A stretch of DNA of 64,000 nucleotides from an uncultured bacterium (GTDB taxonomy: Bacteria > Omnitrophota > Omnitrophia > Omnitrophales > Abzuiibacteriaceae). Shown here in pieces: positions 12,140 through 40,070 of this stretch (the stretch's first letter is position 1; each line of letters starts with the position of its first letter). Made by a program: the position numbers and the translations under genes. The stretch spans positions 288,001 to 352,000 of the forward strand of contig CAYLXA010000001.1 of NCBI GenBank assembly GCA_964387845.1, given 5' to 3'. The notes beneath the pieces were generated by a model, which was given only the letters and a program-made list of their open reading frames with translations, did not search any database and was not told the origin of the DNA.

Positions 12140-12205
12140 TTTTAAGTCGTAAGTGGTAAGGGCTAAGTTATTCGATCGCTTAACACTTACCACTTATCAC
12201 TTATC
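12140..12205. repeat. GTAAGT-heptad hairpin element, copy 1 (family i)
   Basis: aagtcgtaagtggtaag ... cttaccacttatcactta: tandem (N)GTAAGT units followed by their inverted complement. It fills the whole mnmE-folC gap and overlaps the folC stop. Confidence 0.55.
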
Positions 12206-13529: not shown

Positions 13530-13541
13530 GGAAAGCGGGGT

Positions 13542-15104: not shown

Positions 15105-15117
15105 TTTTGTTTCCTAA

Positions 15118-15212
15118 TTCCCTCTCCCTTTGGGAGAGGGCTAGGGTGAGGGATTTCTATAAATCCCACCACCCTCATCCTAACCTTCTCCCTCTAAAGA
15201 GGGAGAAGGGAT
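15118..15212. repeat. nested palindromic element, family ii (CCCTCTCCC-N3-GGGAGAGGG / GGGTGAGGG), copy A
   Basis: ccctctccctttgggagagggctagggtgaggg ... ccaccctcatcc ... cttctccctctaaagagggagaagg. It overlaps the 3' end of the PabC-like gene, whose C terminus reads PSPSLEGEG. Confidence 0.55.
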
Positions 15213-15989: not shown

Positions 15990-16030
15990 GGGAAAAGTAT
16001 AAAGCAAAAAAACAGGGCTGACTATTCGGA

Positions 16031-19000
16031 TTATGCGGAGTAGAAAACCTGCATTTGCGCGCGGAACTTGCCGACCAAATATGCCGCGGCTGATAATACA
16101 TGGTCCACAAACGCTTGGTTCCAGATTATGACCTTGTCTGCGATTTTTTCAAGAAATGGAACGGCAACCGCGTCATCTGAAACACCGATAATGGCCATGG
16201 AAAGACCGAGATTTCTAAGTTCGGCGCGCGCCTTGTGGTAATCCTCAACGGGAACAATCCTATTTTTTGGATTTGCAATGGTTGCATTAATCTCGTCGAT
16301 GACGCGAAGCTCTGCGCGGTTTGTCACGATCACCATGTAAGAACCGTAAACATCCGAAAGATTCCGGCCAACCACAGCCAGACTTCCCTTTTCGCCGAAG
16401 AAAGCGTTACGCGTAAACACTTTCCCTTCCCGCATCTCTGATCGATTTTGAAGTGCTGTAACAATCTGATTGTCAAAACTGCGAGCGTTTGACACAATCC
16501 GGCGCATTTCGCTTCTCGCTACCGGTGCAATCTCAGTTTGCAAATCTCGGAATAACGGATTTTCTTTGACTTCAACTCTTCCTTTAGCAATGGTTTTTTC
16601 AGTCTTTGCAATGACGCGGAAATTAAAAACTGTTTCACCCGAAACTTCGGACTGCACCTTGGCCATAATTAGCGGGAGCCCCAAAACTTCGCTTTGCACC
16701 TTGTCTCCGATTTCAGTATTATTGAAAGCATCTGCTTGATTTAGAATCGACTTTTCAATCGCGCTTTGAAAATCGATTGGTTTGATTTTTTGAAGGCTTT
16801 CCGGCAGCAATTCCTTGTTAATTTCGCCTTCCAAATGAATACTGACATCATAACGGCTTCCAATTGTCTTTTGAGCGATTGTAAAATTCCGGTGTTCGCT
16901 TGTTAGCGATTTGACGCCCGCCTGCTCATAAAATTGAGCATCAATAACGGGAACCTCGCGGTCTGCGATCTCTTCTAAAATCCGGACCGCGCGATGAATA
17001 TATTTAGCGTGCCGGAAACTTCTTCGCTCATTTTCGCTCAGAGTCAAACTCCTGTTTTTCATCTGCAATTCCGAATACCAGCGCCGGAATAACTTCATAA
17101 TTTGAATCAGCGAAAGCGGCTGGTTAGCGCCGAGCGGATTGGATGAATTTTGTTCGTAAATTCTATTAATATCTGTCTCGCTTTGAGCTGTCCAGCTTGA
17201 TTTTTCCTGATTTAAAACCGCTTTAAGTACCGGAATATAAAAACCTGTGTCACGCTCAATCCACCAATTAAGCACATAAAGAGCGGCGAAGCGCGCAGAT
17301 TGGCGCAGCATATCCGGATTAAAGTTTTTAGGCGCTACTTCAATGAGCGGTTTCCATTCATCAACCGGAATAACCGGTTCAGCTAAGTATTGAAGCAGTG
17401 TTTCGAGGCCAACCTCATTTCCTTTTCCAAGCTCATCGGCTCTTGTCTTCCGGATTGTAAAATTAGGATGCGACAAATTTCTAAGAAGTTTTTGCACCGA
17501 ACGCAGTTCTGATTTTTGGCTGCCGGCATCAGGCCCAGGCATCGGCTCTGTCAATTTTTGGAAACGTTCGGCCAATTCGGTTTCTGAGATTTTAAACATT
17601 TCGTCAACAAACGCTTCGGAACCGCCAAGCTCCCCTCCGTCTTCTCCGAATAAACGGACTTCGACTAACTCATGAAACGCAACGGCAAATCTTTCGGCCG
17701 ATATCCTTTCTTCATCCGTTTTGAATTCAAACTGAAAAGCGAGACGCGTATCCTTAACCGCTTCAAGCGTCATCAAGGCCATCGGATTATCCGCTTCGAT
17801 CCATTCAGCACTCCCTTTGTTCAGATTTTTGATCTTAACAGAAACATTTTTTGCTAGGGCGGCTTGCGCCATTTCGACAATGAACATCGCTGGACTCGCA
17901 TGGACACCTTGCCGGTTCTTGACCGTAACATTGATCTCAATGCTGTTACTTTCCCCTTCCCGCAATTCCGACATGTTTCTATCAGTCGGCGTTACGGACT
18001 TTTTATATTCATTAATCTGATGATCGAGAAAAGCTTCGTAACTATCAATGGCCTGGCTTGTTTGCGCCAACCACTCTTCTTCTTCTTTCAATAATAGGCC
18101 ATGTTCTTCTTTCATTCCCTTCAAAGCAGACTTTGCTTTTCGAAGCTCTGGTAATATTCTGAGATAATAATCGTTCGCTTCCGCGGCTAGAGAATTGCCT
18201 CGATCCGAAACTGACAAAATAAAGCTGCTGAAACGATTCAACAAAACTTCCGTGCGGCTCAATAAAATCTTAATTCTGAGCTGCTGTTCATCCAAAGCGA
18301 TTCGCCTCGGTTTGATAAGAGAATAATAAAGGAGCGCTCCGACTCCTATGCCTATCGCGCCCGCTGAAATACCGATAACGGTATAATTTCGTAATTCAGA
18401 ACGATGTTTAGGCGGACGGGGAAAACTTTGAAAAGGCCCCCTGCGCGCAGCGCGGACAGCCTGAATTCTCGCCGTCACTTCTTCAATAGTATCTAAGTCA
18501 CCGGCTAATTCTGCGTTATGAAGCTCGACTTCCAATCTTGCCAAATCCGTCGAGTGATGCGATTGGTCTACAGCAAACGGAAGCTCGATCGGCTCCTCAT
18601 TTTCCAAATCATTGCGCAGTTCCGAACGGACACCGGATTTTTCGCGAGGCGGCTGTTCAGATTTCGGCGGAACCGGGATCCATCCTTCCCACCGGCGGTA
18701 AACATGCGTAGGCCGCGTCCCTACTTCATTGGAAATATTTTTACCGCGCACGCCATGAACCTGATGGGCTTCATCACGCCGTAAAACTTCGGCTCTTTGT
18801 GCACGAAAATAATCATCCGTAAAATGAGTGATTTCGCCGGTTTTTAAGCCCGCGCGGCGCCAGTCAATGTGCCCTTCGGGATGAACAACACGCATATCTT
18901 TCTTCAGTACCTGCAAAGCTCCGGAAAATGCGGCGTGATTAAACAAAATAACTGTTTTCCCGCGATACTGCTCGTTCATGCGTTTCCAAAAAGCGGCGGC

Positions 19001-22000
19001 GCGGATGATTAAATGGGCAAAACTTTCGCCATGCTCAGGTTTCGCCAAAACACTCCACTTTTGATAACTTCGCGCGGCCTTGAATTGTTCCCGGCCAAAC
19101 TGCGCCTTAATTTGCTCATTGGTGAGCCCTTCCCATTCGCCTTGAAAAATTTCTTTTGTATCGGGATCAATCATCACTTTCAGTTCAATTCCTAATTTTT
19201 CACGTACCAACCGGATAAATGGTTCTGCCGTATCCCGCACACGCCCAAGCGGATTAATGATCACCACAAACTGATCCGGATTTGCTGTGATTTGGTCTTT
19301 AAACTTTTCAAATAATTTTTCAGCGTCAGCTTGCGCTTGCACGCGCCCTTTTGGCGTCAACTGCGCGCCTTCGTTATCCATACCGCTTCCCTGAAACCTC
19401 TTTCTCCCTGTTCTTAGCCCTTCCGCAATGATGTGAGTTTCTCCGTGGCGGATAACGTAAAGATCCAGATCAAGCGCCGGTGGGAAATAAGGCTCTTTAT
19501 AAAAAAGCTGCCCGGTCGATTGATTGACCCAAAAACCCATTTGTTGCAATGTTTCGGAAACATTTTTTCGCAATTCCACCCTCGCCTTCATTAATAAATC
19601 CGGCTGTATTGCACTGGTCGGAACCACAAGTTTGCCGTTTTCCCAATAGACCAGCGCACTCAAAAACTGGAACATGACCGGATCATGTTTTCTCACAAAA
19701 TCAGGGTCAAGCCAGTAAAGAGACTGGGCTTCAAAGAAAAACTCTCGCGCAGAAACAATGCTGTATCGGCTCAAAAACTGCGTTTCAATTTCTTCTTGAG
19801 AATAATCAAGCACCTGCTTCTTTTTCCCAAATTGCCTTTCAAGTGCCTGCAGCCTAGTCTCATAAATCCGTTTTGCAATCTGATAAACTGCTGTTTTATC
19901 GTGTGGAATGTTCACAATAGAGAGTGGTAAATTTTTATTCGCAAAATGCTCTAAGCGCTCAAAGTTAATCGGCAGCGCATACTGATTATGCTCAACGAGC
20001 GTTTCCGCAAGTTCGTGAGTCAGGAGCCGTTCTAAATAAGTAAAGTCCTTATCCCTCACCTTCAAAAATTCATCGCTCACTGGCCCGTCATAGGAGATCG
20101 GATGATCGCCCGCATAAAGTGAAAGAAAGATCGATTTAACATTGGACAGCACAGGATGAAGGGAGTGATAGGTAACGCCTCCCAAATGATCTCCGTTGCG
20201 TCTTACGATAGAACGCGCAATAAATACTTGGGCATTGAGCATTTTAAAAAGCGGTGCAATTGCAATGCCGGCCCTATGGCTTTCAAGGAAATGATTGAGC
20301 TGGCCATATAACTTACGCGCTAATCTCCAGTCGGTTTCACTGTTTAATCCATGCAATACATCAGTCCGAATATGTGCAGAAGAGCCTTGTAGATAACCCA
20401 AAACAATTTGACGCAATTCCGCCCTTGCCCCCTTTGAAGAAACATTTTCATGATCCGCTGGGGCCGAGGGGCTTTCTTGTAGTTCTTGCAAAATTAATAT
20501 CACTTCGTCCGGAAGTCCTAATGCGCTTAAAGCATCCTTGGCGCTTTCGAGCTGATGAAAACTGAAATGATCCGCAAATCTTTCTGCGCGAGACTTATTT
20601 CCCAGCAACCCTGTCAAAAATGGGATAGCCAACTCACGAAAATGAATGCACCATGGCTCCGCTTGAAGAATCCGGTTGGTCAGATAAAGCAGTTTTTTAA
20701 GCTGTTTAAACGATAAATCGCTATCTTGAAGCGCGGCACGGATTGCGTCATGGCCTGCATCCAACAACATAGTCTTAGGGGCAGCACTTTCCGCTTCGGA
20801 ATTCCTGAGCTCGGAACGTATGGCTCTAGATTTAATAGCAACGCTGCCGAGATACACATTGCCGCTCTGGTGATAAAGAAGCGGGTTTTCGTGGCCATCC
20901 ATGCTGATAACGTCTCCATCCGCGATATCACGGCCGGCGATGAGCCAAAGATGCTTTTCCGGCTGGAACACCATGTCCGGAACGCCATAAACGGCCGAAA
21001 TGCCTTCTTTCTGCGCCAGCGTTTCCGCATGCACTGAAATGGTCTTCGCTAAAATATGAACCCCTTTTGGAATCCGGTTAATCATTTCGGGATTCACTCT
21101 GTCCAAGATCAAAATAACGCCGTCAACATCCGCTCGGGGATGAGAAACAAGTTCGCCCAAAAGCTTTTCCGCTGCTTCTATCGAATTAGCCGCCAAACCG
21201 CGAATCGCACCGCCGCTCACGCCATGGCCGCGCGCAATCGGCTGATTGTCAGTCGAGTCGGCAAATTCCGGATATTGATCCGTCACAAAATCATCATTGC
21301 TTTGGACAATCCATATCTTTCCGCGCTCAATCGTGAATTCAAACTGCTGGTTGTAACGGAAAATGTTCTTGAGCTTACGCGCGTACTCGAACACTTGTGC
21401 GTAAAGCTCCGGCTGCAATGCTTCAAATGTTTGTTCATCCGGCCGGATTCGCTCACCATTTCCGATTAAAATGTAATTTTGGCCGGCACGGCTCATCAAT
21501 TGATCGCCGATCGAGTGAAACCGAAATTTACCTTGGAGCACGTCATGGCCGTCCGGAAGTGTTCTCAAAACTGCGTGCCCCGCGCCTGAAATTTTCCCGT
21601 CATCAGTCGGCTTTAAATTTCCGAAAACGCCTTTCTGCAGAATAACGACCGTTCCCCACTCTTGCGAAATCTGATGCCGTGTACGATACGCGCGTGCCTC
21701 TTCGGAGTCCCACGATGCATAAACCGCTTCGACTGCCATCATGACCTGATCCATCATGTCGTTTGGAATTATTTTGCCGTGCCGCGCCACGATTGCTTTG
21801 CACTGTTCCACCACTGCCTTCATGCCGTCTGCCGACAAATCTTCCTTTTCTTTAACATTCAAAACCTGCTCAAATTCCGCCTCAGGAATACCGAGCACAT
21901 TGATCGAAAATGACCGGATAAATTCCGCGTAGGTGTCATACGCAAACCACGCATCGCCGCTTTTTTGGGCAAGCGCTTCGGCTTCCGCGTCGTTCATGCC

Positions 22001-28000: not shown

Positions 28001-31000
28001 GCCTGTTTTGCGAAGTCTTTCTGACAAATAATCACGCAATCTTTTGTAATACAAAATTCCGGGCGCAATATTGAGCCGCGTGCTGATCAAAAAAGTTCCT
28101 GGCGCGATAATTCCCATCAAAATAAAAAACAAGGCAGCATTTGAAATGAGAGGATAAATGGTAAAAACGCCGAACCCGACCAGAAACGCGAAAGCGGTCG
28201 GCGCCACCCAAGCATAAATGGGCCTTGGCGGCTTTCTAAGGCCTTTCAAAATGCGTGGATTCATCGTGACAATGTCGAGAGCATCTGCAATGCTGATCCC
28301 GAGTGCGCGCCGCACTTTGGCAATTTCGGAAATTTTCATGCGGCTCAGGCGCGTGGCTTTCATAAATTTCTGAACCGCCATGAGTTTGTCAAAAGCGTCT
28401 TTTTTAAGACTGTCCCGCACCGCTTTGTCTTCGGAAAGCCTGCGCATAGCTTCTTGATTTGAGGCTGACCAGACTACGGCAATAACTTCTTCCGTTTTTT
28501 TCCGCTGGTCAGGCGAAAGTTTATCCAAAAACTTAAGCACATTGACGAGATCGCCGTCTTTAACGGACACGTTGTACAGAATTTCTTCAAAAAAGTACCG
28601 CAAATTCCGGTTTGGACTTGGAAAATATTCGAGCAACTTTTCAAGTTTCGCGATTGCGCGCGGAGGATAGCTCATTTTCTGCGCAACGGGATTTTCATTA
28701 ATTTCAGCGAGAATGGTTTCGATAAATTTTGGATATGCGCGGAGCTCGGATCGCTGCTCATCGGTTTTTTTTGCGATTGCCCTCCTTTCAGACTTATGCT
28801 GAAACCACCACATTCCTCCAAAAAGAAGCAGAAGCGGCGGGATCAAGGAAGCATTGTCCGTAAGCCAGGCAACGGGCCCGGTCACAACAAGAACAAGCGA
28901 GGCTGTAATTGCCTTAAGAAAATATTGTTTCCGGAACTTAAACCACCACGTTTTATACTGAGTCGGAAAAATCTTAACGCGGTTCGATGGTTGAATTAAA
29001 TCCGTTACATAACCAATCACTTCACCTTTTGGGAAAGCATACTCCAAAGGCTCGACCGGATACCCATAAACGTCTAAATATTGTTTTTGGGAAGGATCGG
29101 CATATTCGATCGATACAAGCTCGGGCTGTTTGCCGGATTTCTTAACATAATCGACAAGCCTCTTAGGCCCTTGATTGAGCGGATAAGCAAAATAAAGAAC
29201 TGATTTAAATCCGCATGCCCGGGCATAGTTCTCGATGATTTTTTGAATTCCCTTCGCCTTTGCATCAAAAATTCGCCCCTCCACACCGTCCACAAATAAA
29301 ATCGGCTGTTCTTTTCCGTCTTGATCCTTATAAATCGCGGCGGCGATTCTGGCCCGTACCCGGCGGCCTTCGCGCGTACGGAAATCAATCGCTGAAATAC
29401 TTTTGTTGTGCAAATAATTAAACGGGCCCAGCGCACCTTTTGTTCTCCGGTTTAATTTGTCAAGCCACGTGTTGCCGCGAAGCGACGCCGAAGAAAAGAA
29501 ATCCTTTTGATTGGTTAAATCAAACCACGGATCGCGCCGCCAAATCCGGGCTTCTACAATTGAGTCCGGTAAATTTCCCCAATCGTCAATCTTGGAGATA
29601 CTTTTCTGAAGGTATTGATTGGCCTTCGCGGCATTGGGGTTTACATATTGGCCCAGCTCTTGCAGCAACTTTTTTCCTTCCTCGACAGGCAATTCACCTC
29701 TTTTATTCCTGGCCAATTCTTCTTTGTGCGCATTGAAAAATTGAGTGACCGACTTCTTACCCTCCTTTAAATTGGGCGTGTACTGTCCGGGCTTAAACTG
29801 GCGGTCTTCGGTTGAACCCAAAAAATCCCTGAGTATTTTCTGGATAAACTCGGGGATGGTTTGATTTTCCGCGTCTTCGAATTCCCCTGCCGGTACTTTT
29901 TCAATATTATCCCCGCGAATTTGATAATAGACTTTGTAATCCGGATTATCCCAATTTTCGTTGATGCCGACCGATTTGAGACGCTCCATGGTTTGAATCG
30001 CTGCCTCGGTCTGGTCAAACCATTGCCGGTAACTTCGCCGCTTAAGCATGGAGGCCAGATCCAACGCGGAAATTGTTTTCCACGAAAAAATGAACATTCG
30101 TTTCGCAAATACCGCCAAAATGTAAACCAAGGCTGTGAAACCTGACGCCACAAACAAGCTTTCAATCCATCCTGCGGGATCAGAATTGTTGATCATTTCC
30201 CTAATATTTAAGCTTGCTAAATTTCCATCCATCCAAAAAGAAATAGCGGAATAGAAAATTGTGAGCGCTGCGCGTTGAACCGAAGCATAGAAATATCCAA
30301 TAACGCCAGTGAAGGAAACCGCGAGAAGATGCAGCCACGGGTTCTGAATGAGCGCCGTACGGGCGTGCGCAATCCGTGCGCGTTCTAATTTTTCTTCGTT
30401 AATTTTGTTCAAGTCAATCTTTAAACTTTTAAACTTTTTCCACAAAAATTTCAGCTCCGGGAAACCGTCTTTCTCCATCCGCTCGTCGATTTCGGCAATG
30501 GTGAGATCTGAATTCTCACGCAGTTCACTGGCTGCCTTTGGATTTTTGCTTTTTCCGTTTCCGGAAAAAGCGTTGCGCGTCAGAACACCGATCGTTTTAA
30601 ACACCAGCGCGGTGTTATAAAGTGCCGACCGGTCCCGGATATCGTTTAACTCCAGCTCTATGTCATGCGTGTCCATGCCAAACTTTCCGGTTCCGATACC
30701 CCGCTTTAGAGCGCTTGAGCTGAGAAAACCCGGCTTGGTGTGATGTAAAACACTTTCGATATAATTTTGATCAACTTCCAAAGGTAAGCGCGGCCTTGGC
30801 CCAAACCATTGCATGTCACCGCGGACAATCGACAAGAGCTGCGGAAGCTCATCAAGCCCCGTTCTGCGCAAAAACCATTCGTAAGGCGTAATGCTTTCAT
30901 CTGAAATGTTGAAATCAAGTTTCATGGTTTTAATTTTTCGTATCACAATCGTCTTGCCCTGAAAACCGATTCGCTCTTGAATAAAAAACATGGGGCCGCT

Positions 31001-33958
31001 TGTGATAATTTTCCGGATAAAGGCAAGCAAATAAACCAGCGGAAGAGTTAAAACCCACAAAACGAGCGCTGTGATTCTCCCTGCCGCCTCGGACAGATCA
31101 GGTTTCTTTGCCGCGGGAAGCGATAAAGCATTGGTTTCCTTCAAGCGCAATTCCGAGCGCGCTTTATCGATGTCGTTCGATTGAGAAGCCGAAGTCGGTA
31201 TTTCTCCGGTTGGGTGATTGCTGCTTACCGCATTTGCTTTTCCTTTTGAATGCAAATAAAAGGTGCCGACGGCGGATGTTAAATGTCCCAATCCGGCCAG
31301 AAGCACAACCTCGTTTGAATCTTTTCTGGATCCAAGATACGCGGTTTCTGCCATAAAAGATCCTCTGTCTTTTGCTTTGTCGTTGGGATGTGTCAAATAA
31401 TCAGGGGCGAATAACTGGTGCGACTCGATAGATTTCAACCATTTGGTAAAAAGCAGAATGAGAGAAACCACAAGAAACCACGGTGCAAAAAATGCAGCTA
31501 TTAAACTATCCCGAAGCGAATCCCCATGATCAAATATTTCACTGCCAACCTGCAATTTGTAAAGCAGGCGAAAATTTCGCTCGTGAAAAAATGGGATGCC
31601 TTCTCTCGCTAAGAAATAAGATAACTCCCGTACTTTTTTCTTGTTTAGCAGCATAAATTCAGAACCATGCACAATGCCAATCACATGAAAAGTACGCCCG
31701 CCGATTTTGACCATCTTACCGGAAAAACCAAAGCGTTCCGCAATCGGCGAATCTTGAAATTGCGCCATGGTTTCAGAAGCCGCCTTTCGCCAAATTGGAG
31801 TAGCGAAGTCTGAAAATACTCGGCGGTGATAACCGATATTTTTGCCTAAAAGACCGGCTTTTTTAAATTTCTGAAACAATTCGATGGGTTTTGATGATTC
31901 AATCATCCAAGTTCCGATAGTCCTTTCTGAAATTTTTAATTCACCCGCTCGATCCCAAAATTGTTTCTCAGACGGGTAACGTAAAACATTGATCAATAGC
32001 GGGAGGATAAACTTTTGAACAAAATCAGCGTAGGTAAAATTGAAACTTAAGAGAACCACATTCGCCAAAAGCCACGTGATAAAAATACTAATGGGAAAGC
32101 CAAACCGTGAAAGACTTAGCTGCATAAGTGCCTGTTTAATGCTTGATAAAAAATGAGCTGCGAGTGGATAGGTTTTGGGGAATAGAAGCATTAAAATCAA
32201 GGATCCCGACATTGCGGCTATCCCGTAAAATAAAAATGGAATAGCTTTCATCCCGATTTTTAATAGATGCTTCCGCTTTGCATCCGGGCTCCCGTTCTTG
32301 AGTCTAGATTCAGCATGAATGACATCCCCGGTTACCCGCAATTCCGACCGAGGCGCGGTTGGCGACAAGTGCAATTCCGAGCGCGGCTCTGCGCTTGCGG
32401 CAAACTCGTCAGGAATGACCGGCGATTCCAATAAGATATCCGATACATAATCGGCAGCAGTGCGGCGAACAACCGGGTCGGAATCACCAGCAGCAATAGC
32501 CATAACGGAAACAGCGCGCCAGTCGTGGTGGCGCGTTTGGTACAAGTAATCAAGTAAATTCAGAAGTTTGATTTTAAATTTTTGGAGATGCGGGTTTGGG
32601 GTGCTTGATCCCGATTGAAGTTCCAGAGCTTCTGAAAATGTGGCAAACAAAATATCGGGCGATACTTCATACAAAGAAAATTTTGAGTCGTAAGCCAGCA
32701 AATGTTCAATTCGGTCGATGATTGCAAAATTTCCACTTTGATATGCATTATAGAAATTGATCATGATTTGGCCCGCAACAATTCGCTGAACTAATTTTGA
32801 AACTTCCCCGCCCGTTACTTTAAAATAATATTTTTTTCTGGCTTTGAGCCCATCCAATTCGAATAACTCCCGCAGATTTTCTTCCACTTCCCTCTTGATT
32901 CTTTCAAATTCTATCCTTTTTTCAGAAAGAACATCTTCGAGCGGTTTTTGAGCGGCTTCCAAATTTTCCGTGGCTGGTATTTTCAGCTTTGGTTCTTTTT
33001 GGCCGGGCTGAGTAGAAAACTGAGAACACCCGACCGAAGCTAGTCCGATTAAAGAGAACAACTGAATCAATTTCAATATTTTGAATGCGCGCAGCTCTGA
33101 GGATTGAGATATTTTTGTGTAAACTTGAAAACTGGAGGAGCTATCCGGATGGATCTTGACTGTAACGCGTGAAAAATCGGGAGATGAAAAATAAGGCATC
33201 AATTCATGCTCAACGCCATAGTTGACCAATTTTCCGCCGGCTTTGAGATTTCTTTTGATCGTACTGGCTAGCCGCGCACGATTAGCTGTGCCATAACTAT
33301 AATAATAGACAATATCAGCTTGCTGCAAAAGCGCGGTCCAGCGCGTGTCATTAAAATCTCCGCGCAAAAATTCTACTTGGCCTTTTTTGATAATCCCGCG
33401 CTCCTCGGCCACAGAAAGTAACCGGAGACTGTCTGCGTAGAGATCCGGATCATATTCGATGCCGGTGATTTTTAAATTCGGATAACGGTGAGCAAGCATC
33501 AATGCATAAGCGCCCTGGCCATGGCCCAAGTCCACCATGGTAACCGGCTGGTCATGCGGGATCGGAAATTTTTCGACCGTTGCATTTATCGAATCAAGCC
33601 GGGTCTGTAGGTGAACGCCTTTTTCCGTGCGCCGGAGCTGAGCTGAGCTAAAATCAACTCCGGAATTTCGGAACAAAAGGCCGAGCACTTCCCTTGGATC
33701 CCTGGCCAATTCGACTGCTCGCAATTCCGAGCGCGGCTGAGTGTTTAATTTAACTGTGCCGCGGGCGATGGTGGGTAAATCCAGATCCAGAATACCGCCA
33801 TGCTGATTGGCTAAGCGATGGACTCCGACGGTGGTGAAATTATTTTTGAAGGATTCCGCGATCACAGACGAATCGCCGTAAGCGATCGTGCTGGTAACTG
33901 AAAAGGTAAGGACAAGTGTCAGAGCAACACTTTTTAAAAGATATGAGTTTAACTTCAC
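16031..33958 (-). CDS. giant 5975-aa composite ORF, possibly a polyprotein: signal peptide, SAM-MTase, lipoprotein, tentatively TraB/GumN-like membrane module, PglC-type phosphoglycosyl transferase, several unknown membrane/soluble modules, PPDK-like dikinase, histidine phosphatase, HPr-like domain and HEAT-like module, separated by about 21 R-S-E-L-R motifs
   Basis: A single uninterrupted reading frame starts at ATG 33958 (MKLNSYLLKSVALTLVLTFSVTSTIAYG, signal-peptide-like) and ends at TAA 16031. Domain calls come from motifs read directly in the translation, listed under the sub-features below. Confidence 0.7.
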   Translation of the reverse strand: MKLNSYLLKSVALTLVLTFSVTSTIAYGDSSVIAESFKNNFTTVGVHRLANQHGGILDLDLPTIARGTVKLNTQPRSELRAVELARDPREVLGLLFRNSGVDFSSAQLRRTEKGVHLQTRLDSINATVEKFPIPHDQPVTMVDLGHGQGAYALMLAHRYPNLKITGIEYDPDLYADSLRLLSVAEERGIIKKGQVEFLRGDFNDTRWTALLQQADIVYYYSYGTANRARLASTIKRNLKAGGKLVNYGVEHELMPYFSSPDFSRVTVKIHPDSSSSFQVYTKISQSSELRAFKILKLIQLFSLIGLASVGCSQFSTQPGQKEPKLKIPATENLEAAQKPLEDVLSEKRIEFERIKREVEENLRELFELDGLKARKKYYFKVTGGEVSKLVQRIVAGQIMINFYNAYQSGNFAIIDRIEHLLAYDSKFSLYEVSPDILFATFSEALELQSGSSTPNPHLQKFKIKLLNLLDYLYQTRHHDWRAVSVMAIAAGDSDPVVRRTAADYVSDILLESPVIPDEFAASAEPRSELHLSPTAPRSELRVTGDVIHAESRLKNGSPDAKRKHLLKIGMKAIPFLFYGIAAMSGSLILMLLFPKTYPLAAHFLSSIKQALMQLSLSRFGFPISIFITWLLANVVLLSFNFTYADFVQKFILPLLINVLRYPSEKQFWDRAGELKISERTIGTWMIESSKPIELFQKFKKAGLLGKNIGYHRRVFSDFATPIWRKAASETMAQFQDSPIAERFGFSGKMVKIGGRTFHVIGIVHGSEFMLLNKKKVRELSYFLAREGIPFFHERNFRLLYKLQVGSEIFDHGDSLRDSLIAAFFAPWFLVVSLILLFTKWLKSIESHQLFAPDYLTHPNDKAKDRGSFMAETAYLGSRKDSNEVVLLAGLGHLTSAVGTFYLHSKGKANAVSSNHPTGEIPTSASQSNDIDKARSELRLKETNALSLPAAKKPDLSEAAGRITALVLWVLTLPLVYLLAFIRKIITSGPMFFIQERIGFQGKTIVIRKIKTMKLDFNISDESITPYEWFLRRTGLDELPQLLSIVRGDMQWFGPRPRLPLEVDQNYIESVLHHTKPGFLSSSALKRGIGTGKFGMDTHDIELELNDIRDRSALYNTALVFKTIGVLTRNAFSGNGKSKNPKAASELRENSDLTIAEIDERMEKDGFPELKFLWKKFKSLKIDLNKINEEKLERARIAHARTALIQNPWLHLLAVSFTGVIGYFYASVQRAALTIFYSAISFWMDGNLASLNIREMINNSDPAGWIESLFVASGFTALVYILAVFAKRMFIFSWKTISALDLASMLKRRSYRQWFDQTEAAIQTMERLKSVGINENWDNPDYKVYYQIRGDNIEKVPAGEFEDAENQTIPEFIQKILRDFLGSTEDRQFKPGQYTPNLKEGKKSVTQFFNAHKEELARNKRGELPVEEGKKLLQELGQYVNPNAAKANQYLQKSISKIDDWGNLPDSIVEARIWRRDPWFDLTNQKDFFSSASLRGNTWLDKLNRRTKGALGPFNYLHNKSISAIDFRTREGRRVRARIAAAIYKDQDGKEQPILFVDGVEGRIFDAKAKGIQKIIENYARACGFKSVLYFAYPLNQGPKRLVDYVKKSGKQPELVSIEYADPSQKQYLDVYGYPVEPLEYAFPKGEVIGYVTDLIQPSNRVKIFPTQYKTWWFKFRKQYFLKAITASLVLVVTGPVAWLTDNASLIPPLLLLFGGMWWFQHKSERRAIAKKTDEQRSELRAYPKFIETILAEINENPVAQKMSYPPRAIAKLEKLLEYFPSPNRNLRYFFEEILYNVSVKDGDLVNVLKFLDKLSPDQRKKTEEVIAVVWSASNQEAMRRLSEDKAVRDSLKKDAFDKLMAVQKFMKATRLSRMKISEIAKVRRALGISIADALDIVTMNPRILKGLRKPPRPIYAWVAPTAFAFLVGFGVFTIYPLISNAALFFILMGIIAPGTFLISTRLNIAPGILYYKRLRDYLSERLRKTGHVSAIEKKMQAIGINVSEFEKGRVYENKEKGIRIRIHDKKTLKGAIDFLTSSEAIGNCISLQHFVSWILPSLLSDDGIILADIDHKGSGDAYQHRAQMWMIASEDNGDPVLTVNSFEFNNDGAKYFDELMPEAIQILQDVARRSGFKKIYAGITNYGRDYLDQHYSQGASRNTIKKIHDPEAGFQYHFDAFRYRWLARDFVLKKSRSFTERAYAIIFGLFELTKGNRAKARAFFDSARNARNFWEIPLQGQTAAPQSELLRSELRNQTAQAVNTDPVQTLHALIISKLSVKNIKRFFTVDVLKEFLETQNLNAQGIIKALRGKITLNTSQANQILNLIREFRLLNPDSPSFDVVEWFWVSYWPKLKYLVEKASLNDLNRLEAVETFNQVLRPLSPDFDAAFSFGHKDLISIYDIGKIGTKIADDILIPRGLIVDIVNGSGLLVGKIIKRESQRSAAGRFVPVYTVRLKSRDGKSDSYLSAFAKDRHIVIIEGTDVPSIENFDYYQNLKKLYETGQYQFPNFDQSPVAYLRDWIQMHFYSLGDYGYVAQLYRSGVLEEELSHSDAYVFANEFYKGENDYSTSLYWINVMKAILRPGSLLAHALGGYEGDQQGLLAHAYFEVEAKLNELIRSSYPAQILFPYLNPVLPVSDAMRAALDQEDPLYKVAFVQLLMLLSDEFFGEMTIEPKQWLDFLKKEITDLDRFNRKIREAAKRAYEKQFFTLEERRQILKNRSELRQTAAVTQRSKVDQVMDVIRDLMDQAGSPNKIYDSLTEGDILEALTFLLSPHDSNRFWPRSGSEDRRIYWSKVLPEGFSNRELRELGVELRREWENRGLDKKFGNLNQFLATLIDPYFKDLDEFEKFAGRLDHLLAGGLEDLFYAYWTLGLTQVIHLRPTGLHIEEFDGKEIKKPSDNELLADYVKRFISVVSAWPEERLADIPPSTRKFSQSYPGFTYRNLMLWALSVMLDQDVHDWKFGYRSTDLGVKIFSLKYGARFWPDDTKRRTGKQSMTEYLSRMLTDVPELDQNGVETGRKISNEKIEKLVAEVLSRNESDWVRLGFRSPWDVSEVQASMLIRTIGDRSKNPLRDAVLTLPLPNLQDPELNVGINTSAPVYLKYAPLPRHLIFPTQAAFIHRRKEAVRRRLFFGEPFRTLFPNLKTLTAQKRSELRSDGRTNPMSYKEFEKALRDYQTLMKLSFGRGGKHLSFEQNQAVGARKEAIIDLLKKNSKEHLQNLIREFILKADLPLDKKQSYLWYVSSAMSPDRYRMTDAFFKEHLIPIYLSKTNSPEENRIFLELAAAYFNEHYIKADIHHDLEATFRQASPDDLGKLIHLLLHLRTIGHEFFRELISILLSVSPADPLAAAFVAAQGLVRDIPSEGRKRIEYPQMSLYLLHQPNARAAYFYLMKVIEAERKGGVSTDNSQDRIISYSRRLDNNASYPGEFGRGWFSHFRDGIHRNLNRSDFENTRRVLAYWLTLDESILKESNWTLLRDDMTKDFNPATLQTYSKLLNRFVKALAAKGKISKSDPEAFLDEILDIPEREVVAIYEEANRDEDVSEIDYERVQLMTQLYLAFADHFGTRVATIVPFLKGETEDLRDGGYLKKKMTAITRFMREDYDRLLMLIDSDDHAAIFSAIVKVQNDLKEFLLSGEENQKKVLGQAEKSIGRDGEDSADEDADDIDQEWNDMHEEGDYLYDLRTLVEMSEKLSILASEKIAHVQEKIEKINSVDDLRRELPNLIALGRFIQASGLGGVDFDQLMVELDSGSIKASQLYDLVHTLEAEVHKITRQLNNTMRAAMQYSLDEVGYHDLAKLWREHTSLFKIKTKTEDDQTYQIYDFPPEGKERLEAAVIDELIRNSGATAFDRALMKFDAVLASALSQGQDEAIREDAGAERPDDFEQHLYRFGENETDERPELLSLWSKKGLNLIRMTHERIPVPPGVILSAKLVTKPDIFRSDEFRQKIAAEIERLKRYSEYPDLKLILYARSGSAFMLPGLLATVSNVGMNDAEAEALAQKSGDAWFAYDTYAEFIRSFSINVLGIPEAEFEQVLNVKEKEDLSADGMKAVVEQCKAIVARHGKIIPNDMMDQVMMAVEAVYASWDSEEARAYRTRHQISQEWGTVVILQKGVFGNLKPTDDGKISGAGHAVLRTLPDGHDVLQGKFRFHSIGDQLMSRAGQNYILIGNGERIRPDEQTFEALQPELYAQVFEYARKLKNIFRYNQQFEFTIERGKIWIVQSNDDFVTDQYPEFADSTDNQPIARGHGVSGGAIRGLAANSIEAAEKLLGELVSHPRADVDGVILILDRVNPEMINRIPKGVHILAKTISVHAETLAQKEGISAVYGVPDMVFQPEKHLWLIAGRDIADGDVISMDGHENPLLYHQSGNVYLGSVAIKSRAIRSELRNSEAESAAPKTMLLDAGHDAIRAALQDSDLSFKQLKKLLYLTNRILQAEPWCIHFRELAIPFLTGLLGNKSRAERFADHFSFHQLESAKDALSALGLPDEVILILQELQESPSAPADHENVSSKGARAELRQIVLGYLQGSSAHIRTDVLHGLNSETDWRLARKLYGQLNHFLESHRAGIAIAPLFKMLNAQVFIARSIVRRNGDHLGGVTYHSLHPVLSNVKSIFLSLYAGDHPISYDGPVSDEFLKVRDKDFTYLERLLTHELAETLVEHNQYALPINFERLEHFANKNLPLSIVNIPHDKTAVYQIAKRIYETRLQALERQFGKKKQVLDYSQEEIETQFLSRYSIVSAREFFFEAQSLYWLDPDFVRKHDPVMFQFLSALVYWENGKLVVPTSAIQPDLLMKARVELRKNVSETLQQMGFWVNQSTGQLFYKEPYFPPALDLDLYVIRHGETHIIAEGLRTGRKRFQGSGMDNEGAQLTPKGRVQAQADAEKLFEKFKDQITANPDQFVVIINPLGRVRDTAEPFIRLVREKLGIELKVMIDPDTKEIFQGEWEGLTNEQIKAQFGREQFKAARSYQKWSVLAKPEHGESFAHLIIRAAAFWKRMNEQYRGKTVILFNHAAFSGALQVLKKDMRVVHPEGHIDWRRAGLKTGEITHFTDDYFRAQRAEVLRRDEAHQVHGVRGKNISNEVGTRPTHVYRRWEGWIPVPPKSEQPPREKSGVRSELRNDLENEEPIELPFAVDQSHHSTDLARLEVELHNAELAGDLDTIEEVTARIQAVRAARRGPFQSFPRPPKHRSELRNYTVIGISAGAIGIGVGALLYYSLIKPRRIALDEQQLRIKILLSRTEVLLNRFSSFILSVSDRGNSLAAEANDYYLRILPELRKAKSALKGMKEEHGLLLKEEEEWLAQTSQAIDSYEAFLDHQINEYKKSVTPTDRNMSELREGESNSIEINVTVKNRQGVHASPAMFIVEMAQAALAKNVSVKIKNLNKGSAEWIEADNPMALMTLEAVKDTRLAFQFEFKTDEERISAERFAVAFHELVEVRLFGEDGGELGGSEAFVDEMFKISETELAERFQKLTEPMPGPDAGSQKSELRSVQKLLRNLSHPNFTIRKTRADELGKGNEVGLETLLQYLAEPVIPVDEWKPLIEVAPKNFNPDMLRQSARFAALYVLNWWIERDTGFYIPVLKAVLNQEKSSWTAQSETDINRIYEQNSSNPLGANQPLSLIQIMKLFRRWYSELQMKNRSLTLSENERRSFRHAKYIHRAVRILEEIADREVPVIDAQFYEQAGVKSLTSEHRNFTIAQKTIGSRYDVSIHLEGEINKELLPESLQKIKPIDFQSAIEKSILNQADAFNNTEIGDKVQSEVLGLPLIMAKVQSEVSGETVFNFRVIAKTEKTIAKGRVEVKENPLFRDLQTEIAPVARSEMRRIVSNARSFDNQIVTALQNRSEMREGKVFTRNAFFGEKGSLAVVGRNLSDVYGSYMVIVTNRAELRVIDEINATIANPKNRIVPVEDYHKARAELRNLGLSMAIIGVSDDAVAVPFLEKIADKVIIWNQAFVDHVLSAAAYLVGKFRAQMQVFYSA
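17701..17950 (-). other. HPr-like phosphocarrier domain
   Basis: IEINVTVKNRQGVHASPAMFIVEMAQ resembles the HPr active site GLHTRPA (the His-15 region). NPMALMTLEAVKDTRLAFQFE resembles the HPr Ser-46 region. Bounded by MSELR and KSELR. Confidence 0.5.
18622..19573 (-). other. histidine phosphatase (phosphoglycerate-mutase-like, branch 1) module
   Basis: LYVIRHGETHIIAEG (the RHG catalytic motif), verified on the DNA at about 19440-19470. Bounded by KARVELR and VRSELR. Confidence 0.6.
20810..22274 (-). other. pyruvate-phosphate-dikinase / PEP-synthase-like ATP-grasp nucleotide-binding domain plus phosphohistidine swivel domain; no PEP-binding TIM barrel found
   Basis: KKGLNLIRMTHERIPVPPGVILSAK and YARSGSAFMLPGLLATVSNVGMND match the PPDK_N motifs GGKGANL...PVPPGF and VRSSAxxEDMPGMMDTVLNLGLND. 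KTISVHAETLAQKEGISAVYG matches the PEP-utilizer mobile-domain phosphohistidine motif. GTNDL was not found. Confidence 0.65.
30526..31150 (-). other. PglC/WbaP-type polyprenyl-phosphate phosphoglycosyl transferase (Bac_transf) module, aa ~937-1144
   Basis: N-terminal re-entrant helix ITALVLWVLTLPLVYLLAFIRK and the signature LRRTGLDELPQLLSIVRGDMQWFGPRPRLP. The roughly 200-aa size equals a free-standing PglC. Flanked by ARSELR and AASELR. Confidence 0.75.
31162..32340 (-). other. polytopic membrane module with a TraB/GumN-like motif (tentative), aa ~540-932 of the giant ORF
   Basis: GGRTFHVIGIVHGSEF resembles the TraB/GumN/Tiki G-T-x-H motif. Several TM segments. Bounded by RSELR on both sides. 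Confidence 0.3.
33103..33721 (-). other. class I SAM-dependent methyltransferase module of the giant ORF (aa ~80-285)
   Basis: VDLGHGQGAYALMLAHRYPNLKITGIEYDP (motif I plus an acidic residue at the end of beta2) and ADIVYYY. Bounded by PRSELR upstream and SSELR downstream. Confidence 0.6.
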
Positions 33959-39917: not shown

Positions 39918-40070
39918 GAAACACCCCTCTTATTGGTTTTAAATGGAGGGGGGATTTTAATTTTGTTTTTTACTGCGGGAGATATGGAATTATATATAAC
40001 TTTTACGATTAATCAACACTCAACTTCTAGCCTGTCCCCTTAGAAGGTGCCTGGCACTTTTTTTATGAGA

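What the first reader, a model, noticed from the sequence alone, without database searches (positions are those of the whole stretch)
16031..33958. Pentapeptide R-S-E-L-R recurs about 21 times across the giant ORF, at module boundaries, encoded by varied codons
The translation shows RSELR or close variants (RAELR, RVELR, RSEMR, KSELR, MSELR, SSELR, ASELR, RSELH) at approximately aa 76, 286, 523, 536, 932, 1144, 1736, 2241/2246 (tandem QSELLRSELR), 2718, 3151, 4383, 4514, 4795, 5113, 5188, 5331, 5484, 5817, 5841, 5883 and 5913.

Chance expectation for one pentapeptide in 6 kaa is far below 1.

The DNA at these sites uses different codons (CGTTCCGAGCTCAGG, GCGCTCGGAATTGCG, TCAGAGCTGCGC, AGTGAACTGCGT, CGTTCGGAACTTAGG, TCCGAGCTCCGC). 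This points to selection on the peptide, not spread of a DNA repeat.

The motifs bracket units that are complete stand-alone proteins elsewhere. For example, the PglC-like module lies exactly between ARSELR and AASELR. The motif was not seen in other proteins in the window.

The most economical reading is a recognition or cleavage site, for example for an Arg-specific protease, as in gingipain polyprotein processing. That would make this a bacterial polyprotein.
Basis: seen in the sequence. Interest (0 to 1): 0.92.

Follow-up and report, generated by a model that had tools for sequence, protein, structure and literature searches.

The report
Junction motif punctuating giant multi-enzyme protein
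A 5,975-residue bacterial protein made of many enzyme-like units has the five-residue tag R-S-E-L-R between the units, and thousands of giant, almost cysteine-free proteins of the phylum Omnitrophota carry the same tag, so it is probably a signal at which these proteins are recognised and perhaps cut into pieces.

Summary
Shuffles give 0.017, 0.21 and 0.27. The other 14,072 aa encoded in the window contain none. Codons at the sites vary like background usage, so selection acts on the peptide.

The motif is not private to this gene. R-[S/A]-E-x-R is the most recurrent pentapeptide in giant Omnitrophota proteins, at 2.05 per kaa against 0.27 in flanking ORFs. These proteins hold about 0.13% Cys against about 1%. 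Most start with a signal peptide and a roughly 430-aa domain with a TIKI/TraB/RRSP-like hydrolase fold, and most end in a domain finishing [S/A]-A. That N-domain family has 8,637 cluster representatives. Homologous modules keep the motif at the same boundary. Some lineages use GASLG or SGFGA instead.

My best reading is a lineage-specific recognition site between modules, most likely a proteolytic processing site. Cleavage itself is untested. The window protein lacks the candidate protease domain, and no gingipain-like enzyme was found. I found no description of the motif or of the cysteine depletion in the papers I could search.

The parts
16031..33958 (-). Giant ORF of 5,975 aa with a GTG start. 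It is a multi-module, cysteine-poor protein (5 Cys, 0.08%).
   Evidence: An independent Logan assembly (SRR15237813) carries identical PurH, the same flanking genes and a giant ORF running off the contig end.
33878..33958 (-). N-terminal signal-peptide-like segment (aa 1-27, VKLNSYLLKSVALTLVLTFSVTSTIAYG).
   Evidence: Hydropathy peak at aa 7-25 and reading of the sequence. No dedicated predictor was run.
33719..33733 (-). RSELR at aa 76. It precedes the methyltransferase module.
   Evidence: It aligns with RSELR2983 of P0004.
33224..33535 (-). SAM-methyltransferase module core (aa 142-245; VDLGHGQG).
   Evidence: Pfam Methyltransf_25, E 2e-6.
33089..33103 (-). SSELR at aa 286. A lipoprotein-signal-like segment follows directly.
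33026..33088 (-). Internal lipoprotein-signal-like segment (aa 291-311, AFKILKLIQLFSLIGLASVGC). It holds one of the protein's only 5 Cys.
32369..32383 (-). RSELH at aa 526, the first of a tandem pair.
32336..32350 (-). RSELR at aa 537.
31145..31159 (-). RSELR at aa 934, the N-terminal boundary of the PglC-like module.
   Evidence: It corresponds in position to AASLG5421 of P0003.
30581..31075 (-). PglC-like polyprenyl-phosphate glycosyl-phosphotransferase module (aa 962-1126; GLDELPQ retained).
   Evidence: Pfam Bac_transf, E 1.9e-27; PDB 8e37 PglC.
30518..30532 (-). ASELR at aa 1143, the C-terminal boundary of the PglC-like module. Ser is encoded by AGT here.
28739..28753 (-). RSELR at aa 1736.
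27206..27235 (-). Tandem QSELL-RSELR at aa 2242-2251.
25796..25810 (-). RSELR at aa 2717.
24500..24514 (-). RSELR at aa 3149.
20888..22312 (-). Pyruvate-phosphate-dikinase-like nucleotide-binding region plus PEP-utiliser mobile domain (aa about 3883-4357). The His of the mobile domain is retained (SVHAE).
   Evidence: NCBIfam TIGR01828, E 2e-62; PDB 2r82, E 2.5e-44; Pfam.
20804..20818 (-). RSELR at aa 4381, the C-terminal boundary of the PPDK-like module.
   Evidence: It aligns with RSEVR3034 of P0002.
20411..20425 (-). RAELR at aa 4512.
19568..19582 (-). RVELR at aa 4793. It precedes the histidine-phosphatase module.
18914..19462 (-). Histidine-phosphatase module (aa 4833-5015; RHGET retained).
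   Evidence: Pfam His_Phos_1, E 3.8e-20.
18614..18628 (-). RSELR at aa 5111.
18389..18403 (-). RSELR at aa 5186. A membrane-helix-like segment (aa 5192-5210) follows 1 residue after it.
17960..17974 (-). MSELR at aa 5329. It ends 7 residues before the HPr domain.
17714..17938 (-). HPr-like phosphocarrier module (aa 5341-5415; GVHASPA retained).
   Evidence: Pfam PTS-HPr, E 8.5e-8.
17501..17515 (-). KSELR at aa 5482.
16034..16516 (-). C-terminal 161 aa. It begins with RSEMR5815, contains RSEMR5839, RAELR5881 and RAELR5911, and ends QVFYSA. It is probably a reduced copy of the family's C-terminal domain.
   Evidence: The HMM match is not significant.

Best explanation
RSELR is this protein's version of R-[S/A]-E-x-R. 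That short linear signal marks the junctions between independently folding modules in a very large family of giant, signal-peptide-bearing, cysteine-excluded multi-enzyme proteins of Candidatus Omnitrophota.

The most likely role is a site-specific processing (cleavage) site. The long precursor would be cut into separate enzymes, membrane proteins and lipoproteins, which would make it a cellular polyprotein.

In most relatives the precursor starts with an exported domain of about 430 aa. It has a TIKI/TraB/RRSP-type hydrolase fold and a conserved D-x-H...E...H motif. This domain is the best candidate for the enzyme. The window protein lacks it, so it would have to be processed in trans by a paralogue encoded elsewhere in the genome.

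- Shown: the motif's excess, its selection at the peptide level, its boundary position, its family-wide use, its positional conservation, and the fold of the N-domain.
- Inferred: that recognition means cleavage.
- More weakly inferred: that the N-domain is the enzyme.
For: 1. **Excess and exclusivity.** RSELR occurs 10 times against 0.017 expected, and not at all in 14,072 aa of neighbouring ORFs.
2. **Peptide-level selection.** Synonymous codons are mixed as in the background, including TCN/AGY Ser and CGN/AGR Arg.
3. **Family-wide use.**
   - In 80 Omnitrophota loci found through the N-domain, the top pentapeptides of 182,134 aa of tails are RSELR 101, RSEVR 78, RSEMR 68 and RSEAR 52.
   - Density is 2.05 per kaa inside against 0.27 outside.
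   - All 9 flanking ORFs with two or more motifs are further Cys-poor (0-0.23% Cys), same-strand ORFs of 462-3,186 aa, several cut by the locus end.
   - 131 of 134 further representatives have at least one motif.
4. **Linker context.** Flanks are enriched in P, S, G, Q, E and A. Median spacing is 290 aa, about one protein.
5. **Positional conservation.** 45-79% of strict sites are matched at the aligned position in homologues, against 4-5% at control positions. The window protein's sites 76 and 4381 align with motifs in P0004 and P0002. Site 934 lies at the same offset as a GASLG-type site in P0003.
6. **Concerted change of motif type between lineages.** GASLG occurs 15 times in P0003, [AS]GFGA 11 times in L011 and RPEA(R) 8 times in P0112. 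This points to one co-evolving reader of the sites.
7. **Modules look like former whole proteins.**
   - They keep catalytic motifs.
   - Membrane or signal-like segments occur within 40 aa after the motif in 15 of 433 sites and in none of 433 before it. Examples are a Tat-like signal with its Met (L065), a lipoprotein signal (L003) and the window's SSELR-AFKILK...SVGC.
8. **Candidate enzyme.**
   - The N-domain model has pLDDT 89.
   - D65-x-H67, E94/E95 and H379 sit at strand ends. RRSP's catalytic residues are E3900, H3902, E3930 and H4030, with the same 28-residue His-to-Glu spacing (PMC6254334).
   - The first motif lies 55-140 aa after the GGFH histidine in about 90% of 219 proteins.
Against: - No cleavage product has been observed, and all evidence is comparative.
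- The window protein has no N-domain, and no peptidase family is detectable in it or in the window.
- The N-domain follows a signal peptide and so should be outside the cytoplasm. Yet many modules (methyltransferase, HPr, PPDK-like, PglC) are cytoplasmic-type enzymes. An internal Tat or lipoprotein signal would need cleavage before export.
- L011 has an ordinary N-domain (48% identical to P0021) but a different junction motif. This weakens the link between the N-domain and site specificity.
- The AF2 model of a complete small member (P0016) gave no confident contact between a motif and the active site; the motif regions had low confidence.
- Some domain boundaries lack the motif, and four motif-like copies sit inside the probable C-terminal domain.
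- No conserved neighbouring gene, such as a protease or secretion system, was found around 80 loci.
Confidence: 0.5

Rival explanations
1. The motif is a recognition or docking site that is not cut. A partner such as a chaperone, a targeting factor, the family's own N- or C-terminal domain, or a scaffold would bind each linker, and the giant protein would work as one intact string of enzymes.
For: - Every comparative result (selection, linker position, lineage-specific switching, positional conservation) fits binding as well as cutting.
- Tandem copies less than 50 aa apart are common, 70 of 378 spacings, and would add avidity.
- Motif-like copies occur inside the C-terminal domain, and some relatives have one in the last helix.
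- The preprint on Omnitrophota long proteins treats them as intact membrane-anchored architectures.
Against: - Internal Tat-like and lipoprotein-like signal peptides directly after the motif would have no use in an uncut chain.
- No partner is known.
- The conserved N-domain has a hydrolase fold with a catalytic-type motif, not a peptide-binding fold.
Confidence: 0.25
2. The motif is a site of post-translational modification in the linkers, for example phosphorylation of the Ser or modification of the Arg or Glu, and regulates the modules.
For: - It is a short linear motif in exposed, P/S/G-rich linkers.
- The window protein carries phosphotransfer modules (HPr-like, PPDK-like, histidine phosphatase).
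Against: - Ser is replaced by Ala in 18% of 433 sites and by Pro in P0112, so Ser cannot be an obligatory acceptor.
- The alternative motifs GASLG and SGFGA share no modifiable residue with RSExR.
Confidence: 0.08
3. The motif is a non-functional scar of how the giant genes were assembled. It would be a remnant of a recombination or insertion site, or of fused gene ends, inherited by descent.
For: - Some sites share identical DNA: CGCTCGGAATTGC at aa 76, 526 and 934, and CGTTCCGAGCTCAGG at aa 3149 and 4381.
- Modules are clearly shuffled between proteins.
- Giant genes often lie in tandem.
- The window gene splits a pabB/pabC-type cluster.
Against: - Third-codon positions are randomised to background usage while four or five residues stay fixed. 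This includes six-fold-degenerate switches that need two steps.
- The motif persists across a phylum-wide family of thousands of divergent proteins.
- It is kept at aligned positions even in pairs below 40% identity. A neutral scar would have decayed.
Confidence: 0.05
4. The motif is a chance or compositional artefact of an Arg/Glu/Leu/Ser-rich protein.
For: R, S, E and L are all common in the protein, at 6.7-10.8% each.
Against: Composition-preserving shuffles give 0.017 RSELR against 10 observed, with a maximum of 1 in 2,000. There are none in 14,072 aa of neighbours with similar genome composition.
Confidence: 0.01

Closest known systems
Omnitrophota very long 'multi-enzyme metabolic cluster' proteins (Nielsen & Lui, bioRxiv 10.64898/2026.06.07.730766; West-Roberts et al., bioRxiv 10.1101/2023.11.21.568195)
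   Same: - Same phylum among the relatives found.
- Same architecture: many unrelated enzyme Pfams tiled along one polypeptide, with a signal peptide and/or membrane helices.
- Methyltransferase, sugar transferase and kinase-type content.
- Most such proteins are sequence singletons.
   Different: - Those studies catalogue proteins of at least 10,000 aa (Nielsen & Lui) or giant proteins, some above 85,000 aa (West-Roberts).
- West-Roberts states that information on cleavage points is lacking.
- Term searches of the two texts found no 'polyprotein' or 'linker' in West-Roberts, and no 'cleav', 'polyprotein', 'proteoly', 'linker', 'fusion', 'junction', 'motif' or 'cysteine' in Nielsen & Lui.
- The window protein is a smaller member (5,975 aa).
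MARTX toxins of Vibrio (multifunctional autoprocessing repeats-in-toxin)
   Same: - One giant secreted precursor with conserved ends and a variable array of effector enzymes in the middle.
- Effectors are released by a built-in protease that cuts in inter-effector linkers (established knowledge; PMC6254334, PMC6315884).
- One MARTX effector, RRSP, has the same fold as the Omnitrophota N-domain.
   Different: - No RTX or MARTX repeats and no cysteine protease domain (Peptidase_C80) were detected.
- MARTX linkers are cut after Leu, not at a fixed pentapeptide.
- MARTX toxins are exported by type I secretion without an N-terminal signal peptide.
- In MARTX the TIKI-like RRSP is cargo, not the processing enzyme.
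Viral polyproteins (picornavirus, flavivirus, potyvirus) with dedicated proteases
   Same: - A short conserved site recurs at the boundaries of functional units.
- The site's sequence co-varies with the lineage.
- Redundant or closely spaced sites occur that would release short spacer peptides.
   Different: - This is a cellular, chromosomal gene among housekeeping genes.
- Modules are ordinary metabolic or envelope enzymes.
- The protease has not been identified and cleavage has not been shown.
Gingipain (RgpA/Kgp) polyprotein processing in Porphyromonas
   Same: A bacterial multi-domain precursor processed at Arg or Lys residues between domains (established knowledge).
   Different: - No Peptidase_C25 or type IX secretion C-terminal domain was found.
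- Gingipain sites are single basic residues, not a conserved pentapeptide.
- Gingipain domains are adhesin and protease parts of one complex, not unrelated enzymes.
TIKI / TraB / PrgY / RRSP / erythromycin-esterase superfamily (for the N-domain of the relatives)
   Same: - An alpha/beta fold with the active site at strand ends.
- A conserved acidic-x-His, Glu and C-terminal His pattern.
- Tiki (Wnt) and RRSP (Ras/Rap1) are site-specific endopeptidases (PMC6254334).
- Tiki/TraB-family peptidases have been predicted as peptide-maturation enzymes in bacteria (PMC8939145).
   Different: - No sequence-level match to Pfam or NCBIfam models.
- A helical insertion of about 200 aa.
- Other members of the superfamily are esterases (Ere) or haem binders (ChaN), so protease activity cannot be assumed.

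Membership tests
Omnitrophota RSExR-punctuated, Cys-excluded giant protein family (defined here) | R-[S/A]-E-x-R recurs in the linkers between modules | tested here: met
   10 exact and 21 loose copies. The same motif ranks first in 80 related loci and occurs in 131 of 134 representatives.
Omnitrophota RSExR-punctuated, Cys-excluded giant protein family (defined here) | Strong cysteine depletion compared with neighbouring genes | tested here: met
   5 Cys in 5,975 aa (0.08%) against 1.14% in the other window ORFs. The family shows 0.13-0.14% against 0.98%.
Omnitrophota RSExR-punctuated, Cys-excluded giant protein family (defined here) | N-terminal signal peptide followed by the TIKI/TraB-like N-domain of about 430 aa (QDAH...EEG...GGFH) | tested here: not met
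   A signal-peptide-like N-terminus is present. However, hmmsearch with the N-domain profile finds nothing in any frame of the window (best E 0.89). Other motif-bearing giant ORFs without a visible N-domain exist next to N-domain genes.
Omnitrophota RSExR-punctuated, Cys-excluded giant protein family (defined here) | C-terminal domain of about 200 aa that starts at a motif and ends hydrophobic-x-x-[S/A]-A | tested here: inconclusive
   The protein ends QVFYSA, and its last 161 aa start at RSEMR and align loosely with the family domain. The profile match is not significant.
Omnitrophota RSExR-punctuated, Cys-excluded giant protein family (defined here) | Source organism belongs to Candidatus Omnitrophota | not testable with these tools
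All named relatives of its modules and architecture are Omnitrophota; one is Elusimicrobiota.
Proteolytically processed polyprotein | Several independent functional units in one ORF | tested here: met
   Methyltransferase, PglC-like, PPDK-like, histidine phosphatase and HPr-like units all retain catalytic motifs.
Proteolytically processed polyprotein | A conserved, selected site between the units | tested here: met
Proteolytically processed polyprotein | A cognate protease | tested here: inconclusive
   None in this protein or window. Relatives carry a TIKI/RRSP-fold N-domain with a catalytic-type motif. Its activity and specificity are unknown.
Proteolytically processed polyprotein | Mature cleavage products observed | not testable with these tools
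   This needs proteomics or biochemistry.
MARTX toxin | Glycine-rich RTX/MARTX repeats at both ends, and a cysteine protease domain | tested here: not met
   No such Pfam or NCBIfam hits anywhere in the 5,975 aa.
Gingipain-type polyprotein | Peptidase_C25 catalytic domain and a type IX secretion C-terminal domain | tested here: not met
   No hits.
TIKI/TraB/Ere superfamily (N-domain of relatives, not of the window protein) | TIKI-type alpha/beta fold | tested here: met
TIKI/TraB/Ere superfamily (N-domain of relatives, not of the window protein) | Conserved 2His/2-acidic catalytic motif | tested here: met
   D65, H67 and E94 are nearly invariant and E95 is invariant. GGFH379 is conserved in the alignment consensus and invariant in the four-sequence alignment. 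The His-to-Glu spacing of 28 matches RRSP H3902-E3930. Spatial clustering could not be checked because no coordinates were available.

The most novel reading that the evidence does not exclude
Omnitrophota would encode thousands of true cellular polyproteins. Each would be a Sec-targeted, cysteine-free precursor built as [TIKI-like endopeptidase]-[variable cargo enzymes]-[conserved C-domain ending in Ala-COOH]. It would be cut at a lineage-specific pentapeptide (RSExR, GASLG or SGFGA) into dozens of enzymes, lipoproteins and membrane proteins. The products might be released outside the cytoplasm or into host or prey cells, like a MARTX-type effector array built from metabolic enzymes. This would be a gene-expression and protein-delivery strategy so far associated with viruses and a few toxins, used here at the scale of a phylum.
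Probability: 0.35. Interest if true: 0.92.

Novelty: new variant of a known kind. Interest (0 to 1): 0.85.

Why it matters
Giant genes of Omnitrophota are an open puzzle. One of the two studies I could read asks whether the products act as one chain or are cut into pieces, and says that no cleavage points are known.

A conserved, selected, position-specific pentapeptide between modules gives concrete candidate cut or recognition sites. A candidate enzyme with a site-specific-endopeptidase fold comes with it. Together they turn that question into experiments that can be done directly: peptide cleavage assays, N-terminomics, and mutation of D-x-H/E/H.

The motif also has practical uses:
- It offers a rule for splitting these proteins for structure prediction and annotation.
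- Combined with the near-absence of cysteine, it gives a simple signature for finding family members that lack the N-domain, such as the window protein.

If cleavage is confirmed, this would be by far the largest known set of cellular polyproteins in bacteria.

Tried and rejected
- **Chance or composition.** Rejected by shuffles and by the window's other ORFs.
- **DNA repeat or recombination scar.** Rejected because synonymous positions are randomised while the residues are fixed, and because the motif persists across divergent homologues.
- **True orthologues of the window protein.** None exist among 5.8 billion proteins apart from the identical entry, so conservation had to be tested per module and on other family members. 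A second search with aa 4381-5975 returned nothing and was wasted.
- **The N-domain in the window.** Absent in all six frames.
- **A protease or secretion gene next to the giant gene.** There is no peptidase family in the window. Around 80 related loci there is no conserved neighbour: 160 Pfam families in 136 neighbouring ORFs, none found in more than 5 of them.
- **AF2 of a complete small family member (P0016), to see whether a motif docks in the N-domain active site.** The N-domain was modelled confidently but the rest scored below pLDDT 50, so the result was uninformative.
- **Profile match of the family C-domain to the window protein.** Not significant.
- **Organism name for the window.** Exact look-ups found only an unnamed Logan contig.
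- **Other.** A Foldseek search against AFDB was unavailable. Rfam and tRNA scans of the window found nothing. Literature searches for RSELR, and for polyprotein with Omnitrophota or Elusimicrobia, found nothing relevant.


Full report
**1. The observation**

The window has one very long ORF on the minus strand, 16031..33958, of 5,975 codons with a GTG start. Its translation contains:
- RSELR exactly 10 times;
- xSELR 14 times (14 of the 17 SEL tripeptides are followed by R);

Two thousand composition-preserving shuffles give means of 0.017, 0.21 and 0.27. The 34 other ORFs of the window (14,072 aa) contain none of the three patterns. Across the sites Ser uses five codons (including AGT), Leu five and the final Arg five (including AGG), in proportions close to the gene's overall usage. 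Residues are fixed while synonymous positions are randomised, so selection acts on the peptide. A DNA repeat or neutral scar is excluded.

**2. What the protein is**

Recognisable units:

| Unit | Residues |
|---|---|
| SAM methyltransferase | 142-245 |
| PglC-type phosphoglycosyl transferase | 962-1126 |
| Nucleotide-binding and mobile phospho-histidine domains of a pyruvate-phosphate-dikinase-like enzyme | about 3883-4357 |
| Histidine phosphatase | 4833-5015 |
| HPr-like domain | 5341-5415 |

- Each unit keeps its catalytic signature: VDLGHGQG, GLDELPQ, SVHAE, RHGET and GVHASPA.
- The rest has no family match.
- The N-terminus looks like a signal peptide, and there are about a dozen further hydrophobic segments.
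- The motif sits at unit boundaries. The PglC-like unit lies between RSELR934 and ASELR1143. MSELR5329 ends seven residues before the HPr domain. RSELR4381 closes the PPDK-like unit.
- SSELR286 is followed directly by AFKILKLIQLFSLIGLASVGC, which reads as a lipoprotein signal peptide and holds one of the protein's only five cysteines.

Two qualifications apply. No motif precedes the PPDK-like domain. The last four copies lie inside the final 161 residues, which look like one alpha/beta domain.

The protein has 0.08% Cys against 1.14% in its neighbours. An independent Logan assembly carries identical PurH, the same downstream genes and a giant ORF of at least 3,627 aa running off the contig end.

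**3. Relatives**

No orthologue exists among 5.8 billion clustered proteins. Single modules do hit other giant proteins: P0002 (4,445 aa), P0003 (7,365 aa, Omnitrophota), P0004 (3,395 aa) and P0005 (4,768 aa, Elusimicrobiota).
- P0004 has RSELR 12 times.
- P0002 has RSEVR or RSEMR.
- P0003 has [G/A][A/S]SLG 15 times instead.
- All four are cysteine-poor.

Where modules are homologous, the junction aligns:
- window RSELR76 with P0004 RSELR2983;
- window RSELR4381 with P0002 RSEVR3034;
- window RSELR934 at the same offset before the PglC module as AASLG5421 of P0003.

**4. A phylum-wide family**

P0002 to P0005 share a domain of about 430 aa after a signal peptide. Its invariant residues are QDxH, EG and GGxH, and it matches no Pfam or NCBIfam model.

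*GTDB species genomes (170 loci; the best 80 kept).*
- Those with a named phylum are nearly all Candidatus Omnitrophota, and several genomes hold multiple paralogues.
- The ORF headed by the domain is nearly always giant, at 2,000 to more than 3,800 aa. Most run off the 10-kb flank.
- Across 222,034 aa these ORFs hold 0.13% Cys and 2.05 R/K-[S/A]-E-x-R per kaa. In 137,723 aa of flanking ORFs the figures are 0.98% and 0.27.
- All 9 flanking ORFs with two or more motifs are further Cys-poor (0-0.23% Cys), same-strand ORFs of 462-3,186 aa, several cut by the locus end.
- An unbiased count ranks RSELR (101), RSEVR (78), RSEMR (68) and RSEAR (52) as the most recurrent pentapeptides.

*Motif anatomy (433 sites).*
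- The consensus is (A/S/P)-R-S(0.82)/A(0.18)-E-(L/V/M/A)-R-(S/T/A).
- Flanks are rich in P, S, G, Q and E.
- Median spacing is 290 aa, with a second mode below 50 aa.

*Family size.* A full HMMER scan of 1.84 billion representatives finds 8,637 proteins with the N-domain at E up to 1e-3 and 3,824 at E up to 1e-30. In the 150 best-scoring proteins listed, the domain is at the N-terminus, and lengths reach 7,652 aa. Among 134 of these, 131 have the motif, Cys is 0.14%, and 104 end in [S/A]-A.

*C-terminal domain.* Complete members share a C-terminal domain of about 190-210 aa. It begins right after a motif and ends hydrophobic-x-x-[S/A]-A. The window protein ends QVFYSA and aligns loosely, but without statistical support.

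*Other junction types.* A few lineages use [A/S]GFGA (L011, 11 sites) or RPEA(R) (P0112, 8 copies).

**5. Positional conservation**

Among homologous pairs within the family, a strict RSE[LVMI]R site is matched by a motif at the aligned position as follows:

| Identity of the aligned pair | Motif at the aligned position |
|---|---|
| 60-90% | 79% |
| 40-60% | 45% |
| below 40% | 52% |

Only 4-5% of random positions in the same alignments have a motif within 15 residues. The four fixed residues are more conserved than the 24 flanking residues: 0.77 against 0.52, 0.45 against 0.37 and 0.56 against 0.29.

**6. Clues to function**

- Membrane or signal-like segments occur within 40 residues after the motif at 15 of 433 sites, and never within 40 residues before it.
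- Examples are RAEVRQN-MTRRALVKGGFAAFALAMAGPLAALA in L065, a Tat-type signal that still has its Met, and AASLG-KGLKRLF...LTLVSC in L003, a lipoprotein signal.
- Such signals are expected at free N-termini, so they argue that the modules become separate chains.
- Because motif type switches as a set between lineages, a single co-evolving reader of all sites is implied.

*The candidate reader.*
- The N-domain folds confidently (pLDDT 89, pTM 0.82).
- RRSP is a site-specific endopeptidase whose catalysis needs E3900, H3902, E3930 and H4030 (PMC6254334).
- The N-domain has D65-x-H67, E94/E95 twenty-eight residues later, and H379. Each sits at the end of a strand.
- The first junction motif follows the GGFH histidine by 55-140 residues in about 90% of 219 proteins.
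- In the AF2 model of P0016, motifs flank a confident helical hairpin just after the domain.

**7. Weaknesses**

- Cleavage has not been observed.
- The window protein lacks the N-domain. No peptidase is detectable in it or in the window.
- The N-domain is predicted to be exported, while many modules are cytoplasmic-type enzymes.
- L011 has an ordinary N-domain but a different motif.
- AF2 gave no confident motif-to-active-site contact.
- No neighbouring gene is conserved.
- The near-absence of cysteine fits proteins that cross or sit outside the membrane. Envelope proteins in this window are also Cys-poor. This reading is an inference.

**8. Comparison and novelty**

- The architecture matches the 'multi-enzyme metabolic cluster' class of very long Omnitrophota proteins.
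- West-Roberts et al. speculated about post-translational cleavage but noted that cleavage points were unknown.
- Term searches of the two preprints found no mention of a polyprotein or linker in West-Roberts, and none of cleavage, a junction, a motif or cysteine in Nielsen & Lui. My other literature searches also found nothing relevant.
- In how they work, the closest systems are MARTX toxins and viral polyproteins. The defining parts of MARTX (RTX repeats, cysteine protease domain) and of gingipains (Peptidase_C25, type IX C-terminal domain) were looked for and not found.

I therefore class this as a new variant of a known kind: a polyprotein or multi-effector precursor with a dedicated junction signal. 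My confidence is graded:
- about 0.9 that the motif is a selected, family-wide inter-module recognition signal;
- about 0.5 that it is a cleavage site;
- about 0.3 that the TIKI-like N-domain is the enzyme.

Noticed in passing
window 12201-16007 and 34085-35578: The giant gene lies between a chorismate-binding PabB/TrpE-like gene and an aminotransferase-IV (PabC-like) gene. purH, a FolC-like Mur-ligase gene and mnmE follow. It looks as if the giant gene was inserted into a folate/purine gene cluster.
   Followed up: partly
window 16031-33958 and related loci L002-L081: These giant proteins are extremely depleted in cysteine: 0.08% here and 0.13-0.14% in the family, against about 1% in neighbouring ORFs. 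The Cys residues seen in a few members read by eye include catalytic-type or lipobox positions: GAPDH SCTTNC in P0002, radical-SAM CxxxCxxC in P0005 and SVGC311 here.
   Followed up: yes
C-termini of complete family members (L002-L077, P0002-P0004, P0016, P0025, P0032); window 16034-16051: Nearly all complete members end hydrophobic-x-x-[S/A]-A-COOH (104 of 134 representatives and almost all complete ORFs in the loci). The window protein ends QVFYSA. From my own knowledge, a non-polar Ala C-terminus recalls the tails recognised by ClpX or by tail-specific (Prc-type) proteases. This was not tested.
   Followed up: partly
L011:9713-20113, P0003, P0112, P0094: Other junction pentapeptides occur in otherwise similar giants: [A/S]GFGA (11 sites), [G/A][A/S]SLG (15 sites) and RPEA(R) (8 copies). 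P0094 repeats (A)LGWPS(D) 9 times, which may be a repeat domain rather than a junction.
   Followed up: partly
L065 (ORF residue 1073), L003 (ORF residue 569): Complete-looking Tat-type (MTRRALVKGG...ALA) and lipoprotein (KGLKRLF...LVSC) signal peptides lie inside giant ORFs, directly after a junction motif.
   Followed up: partly
L007:18748-21318, L055:17931-21491, L008:3-7742, L069:2-9559, L025:13250-18421: Giant Cys-poor ORFs often lie in tandem on the same strand. A second, more divergent N-domain subtype (HIQDAHVNxEAQRNIA...LEGASGE) heads some of them.
   Followed up: partly
L002:9330-9755: A retropepsin-like aspartyl protease ORF (Pfam Asp_protease_2, E 2.6e-12) lies directly upstream of one N-domain giant gene. 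The family is not among the 25 most frequent families in the 136 neighbouring ORFs scanned.
   Followed up: no
window 39378-40739: An ORF6N-domain gene and a HEPN AbiU2-like gene lie side by side. They may form a small defence or mobile islet among housekeeping genes.
   Followed up: no
window 60899-63160: A 753-aa ORF has no Pfam match and only 0.13% Cys. It lies next to a multihaem cytochrome gene (62997-63779, 6.5% Cys) and cytochrome c biogenesis genes.
   Followed up: no
P0016 residues 452-516 and equivalent regions of N-domain proteins: A conserved, confidently modelled helical hairpin of about 55 aa follows the N-domain and is flanked by junction motifs. This explains the modes at about 55 and about 110 residues in the distance from the GGFH histidine to the first motif.
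   Followed up: partly
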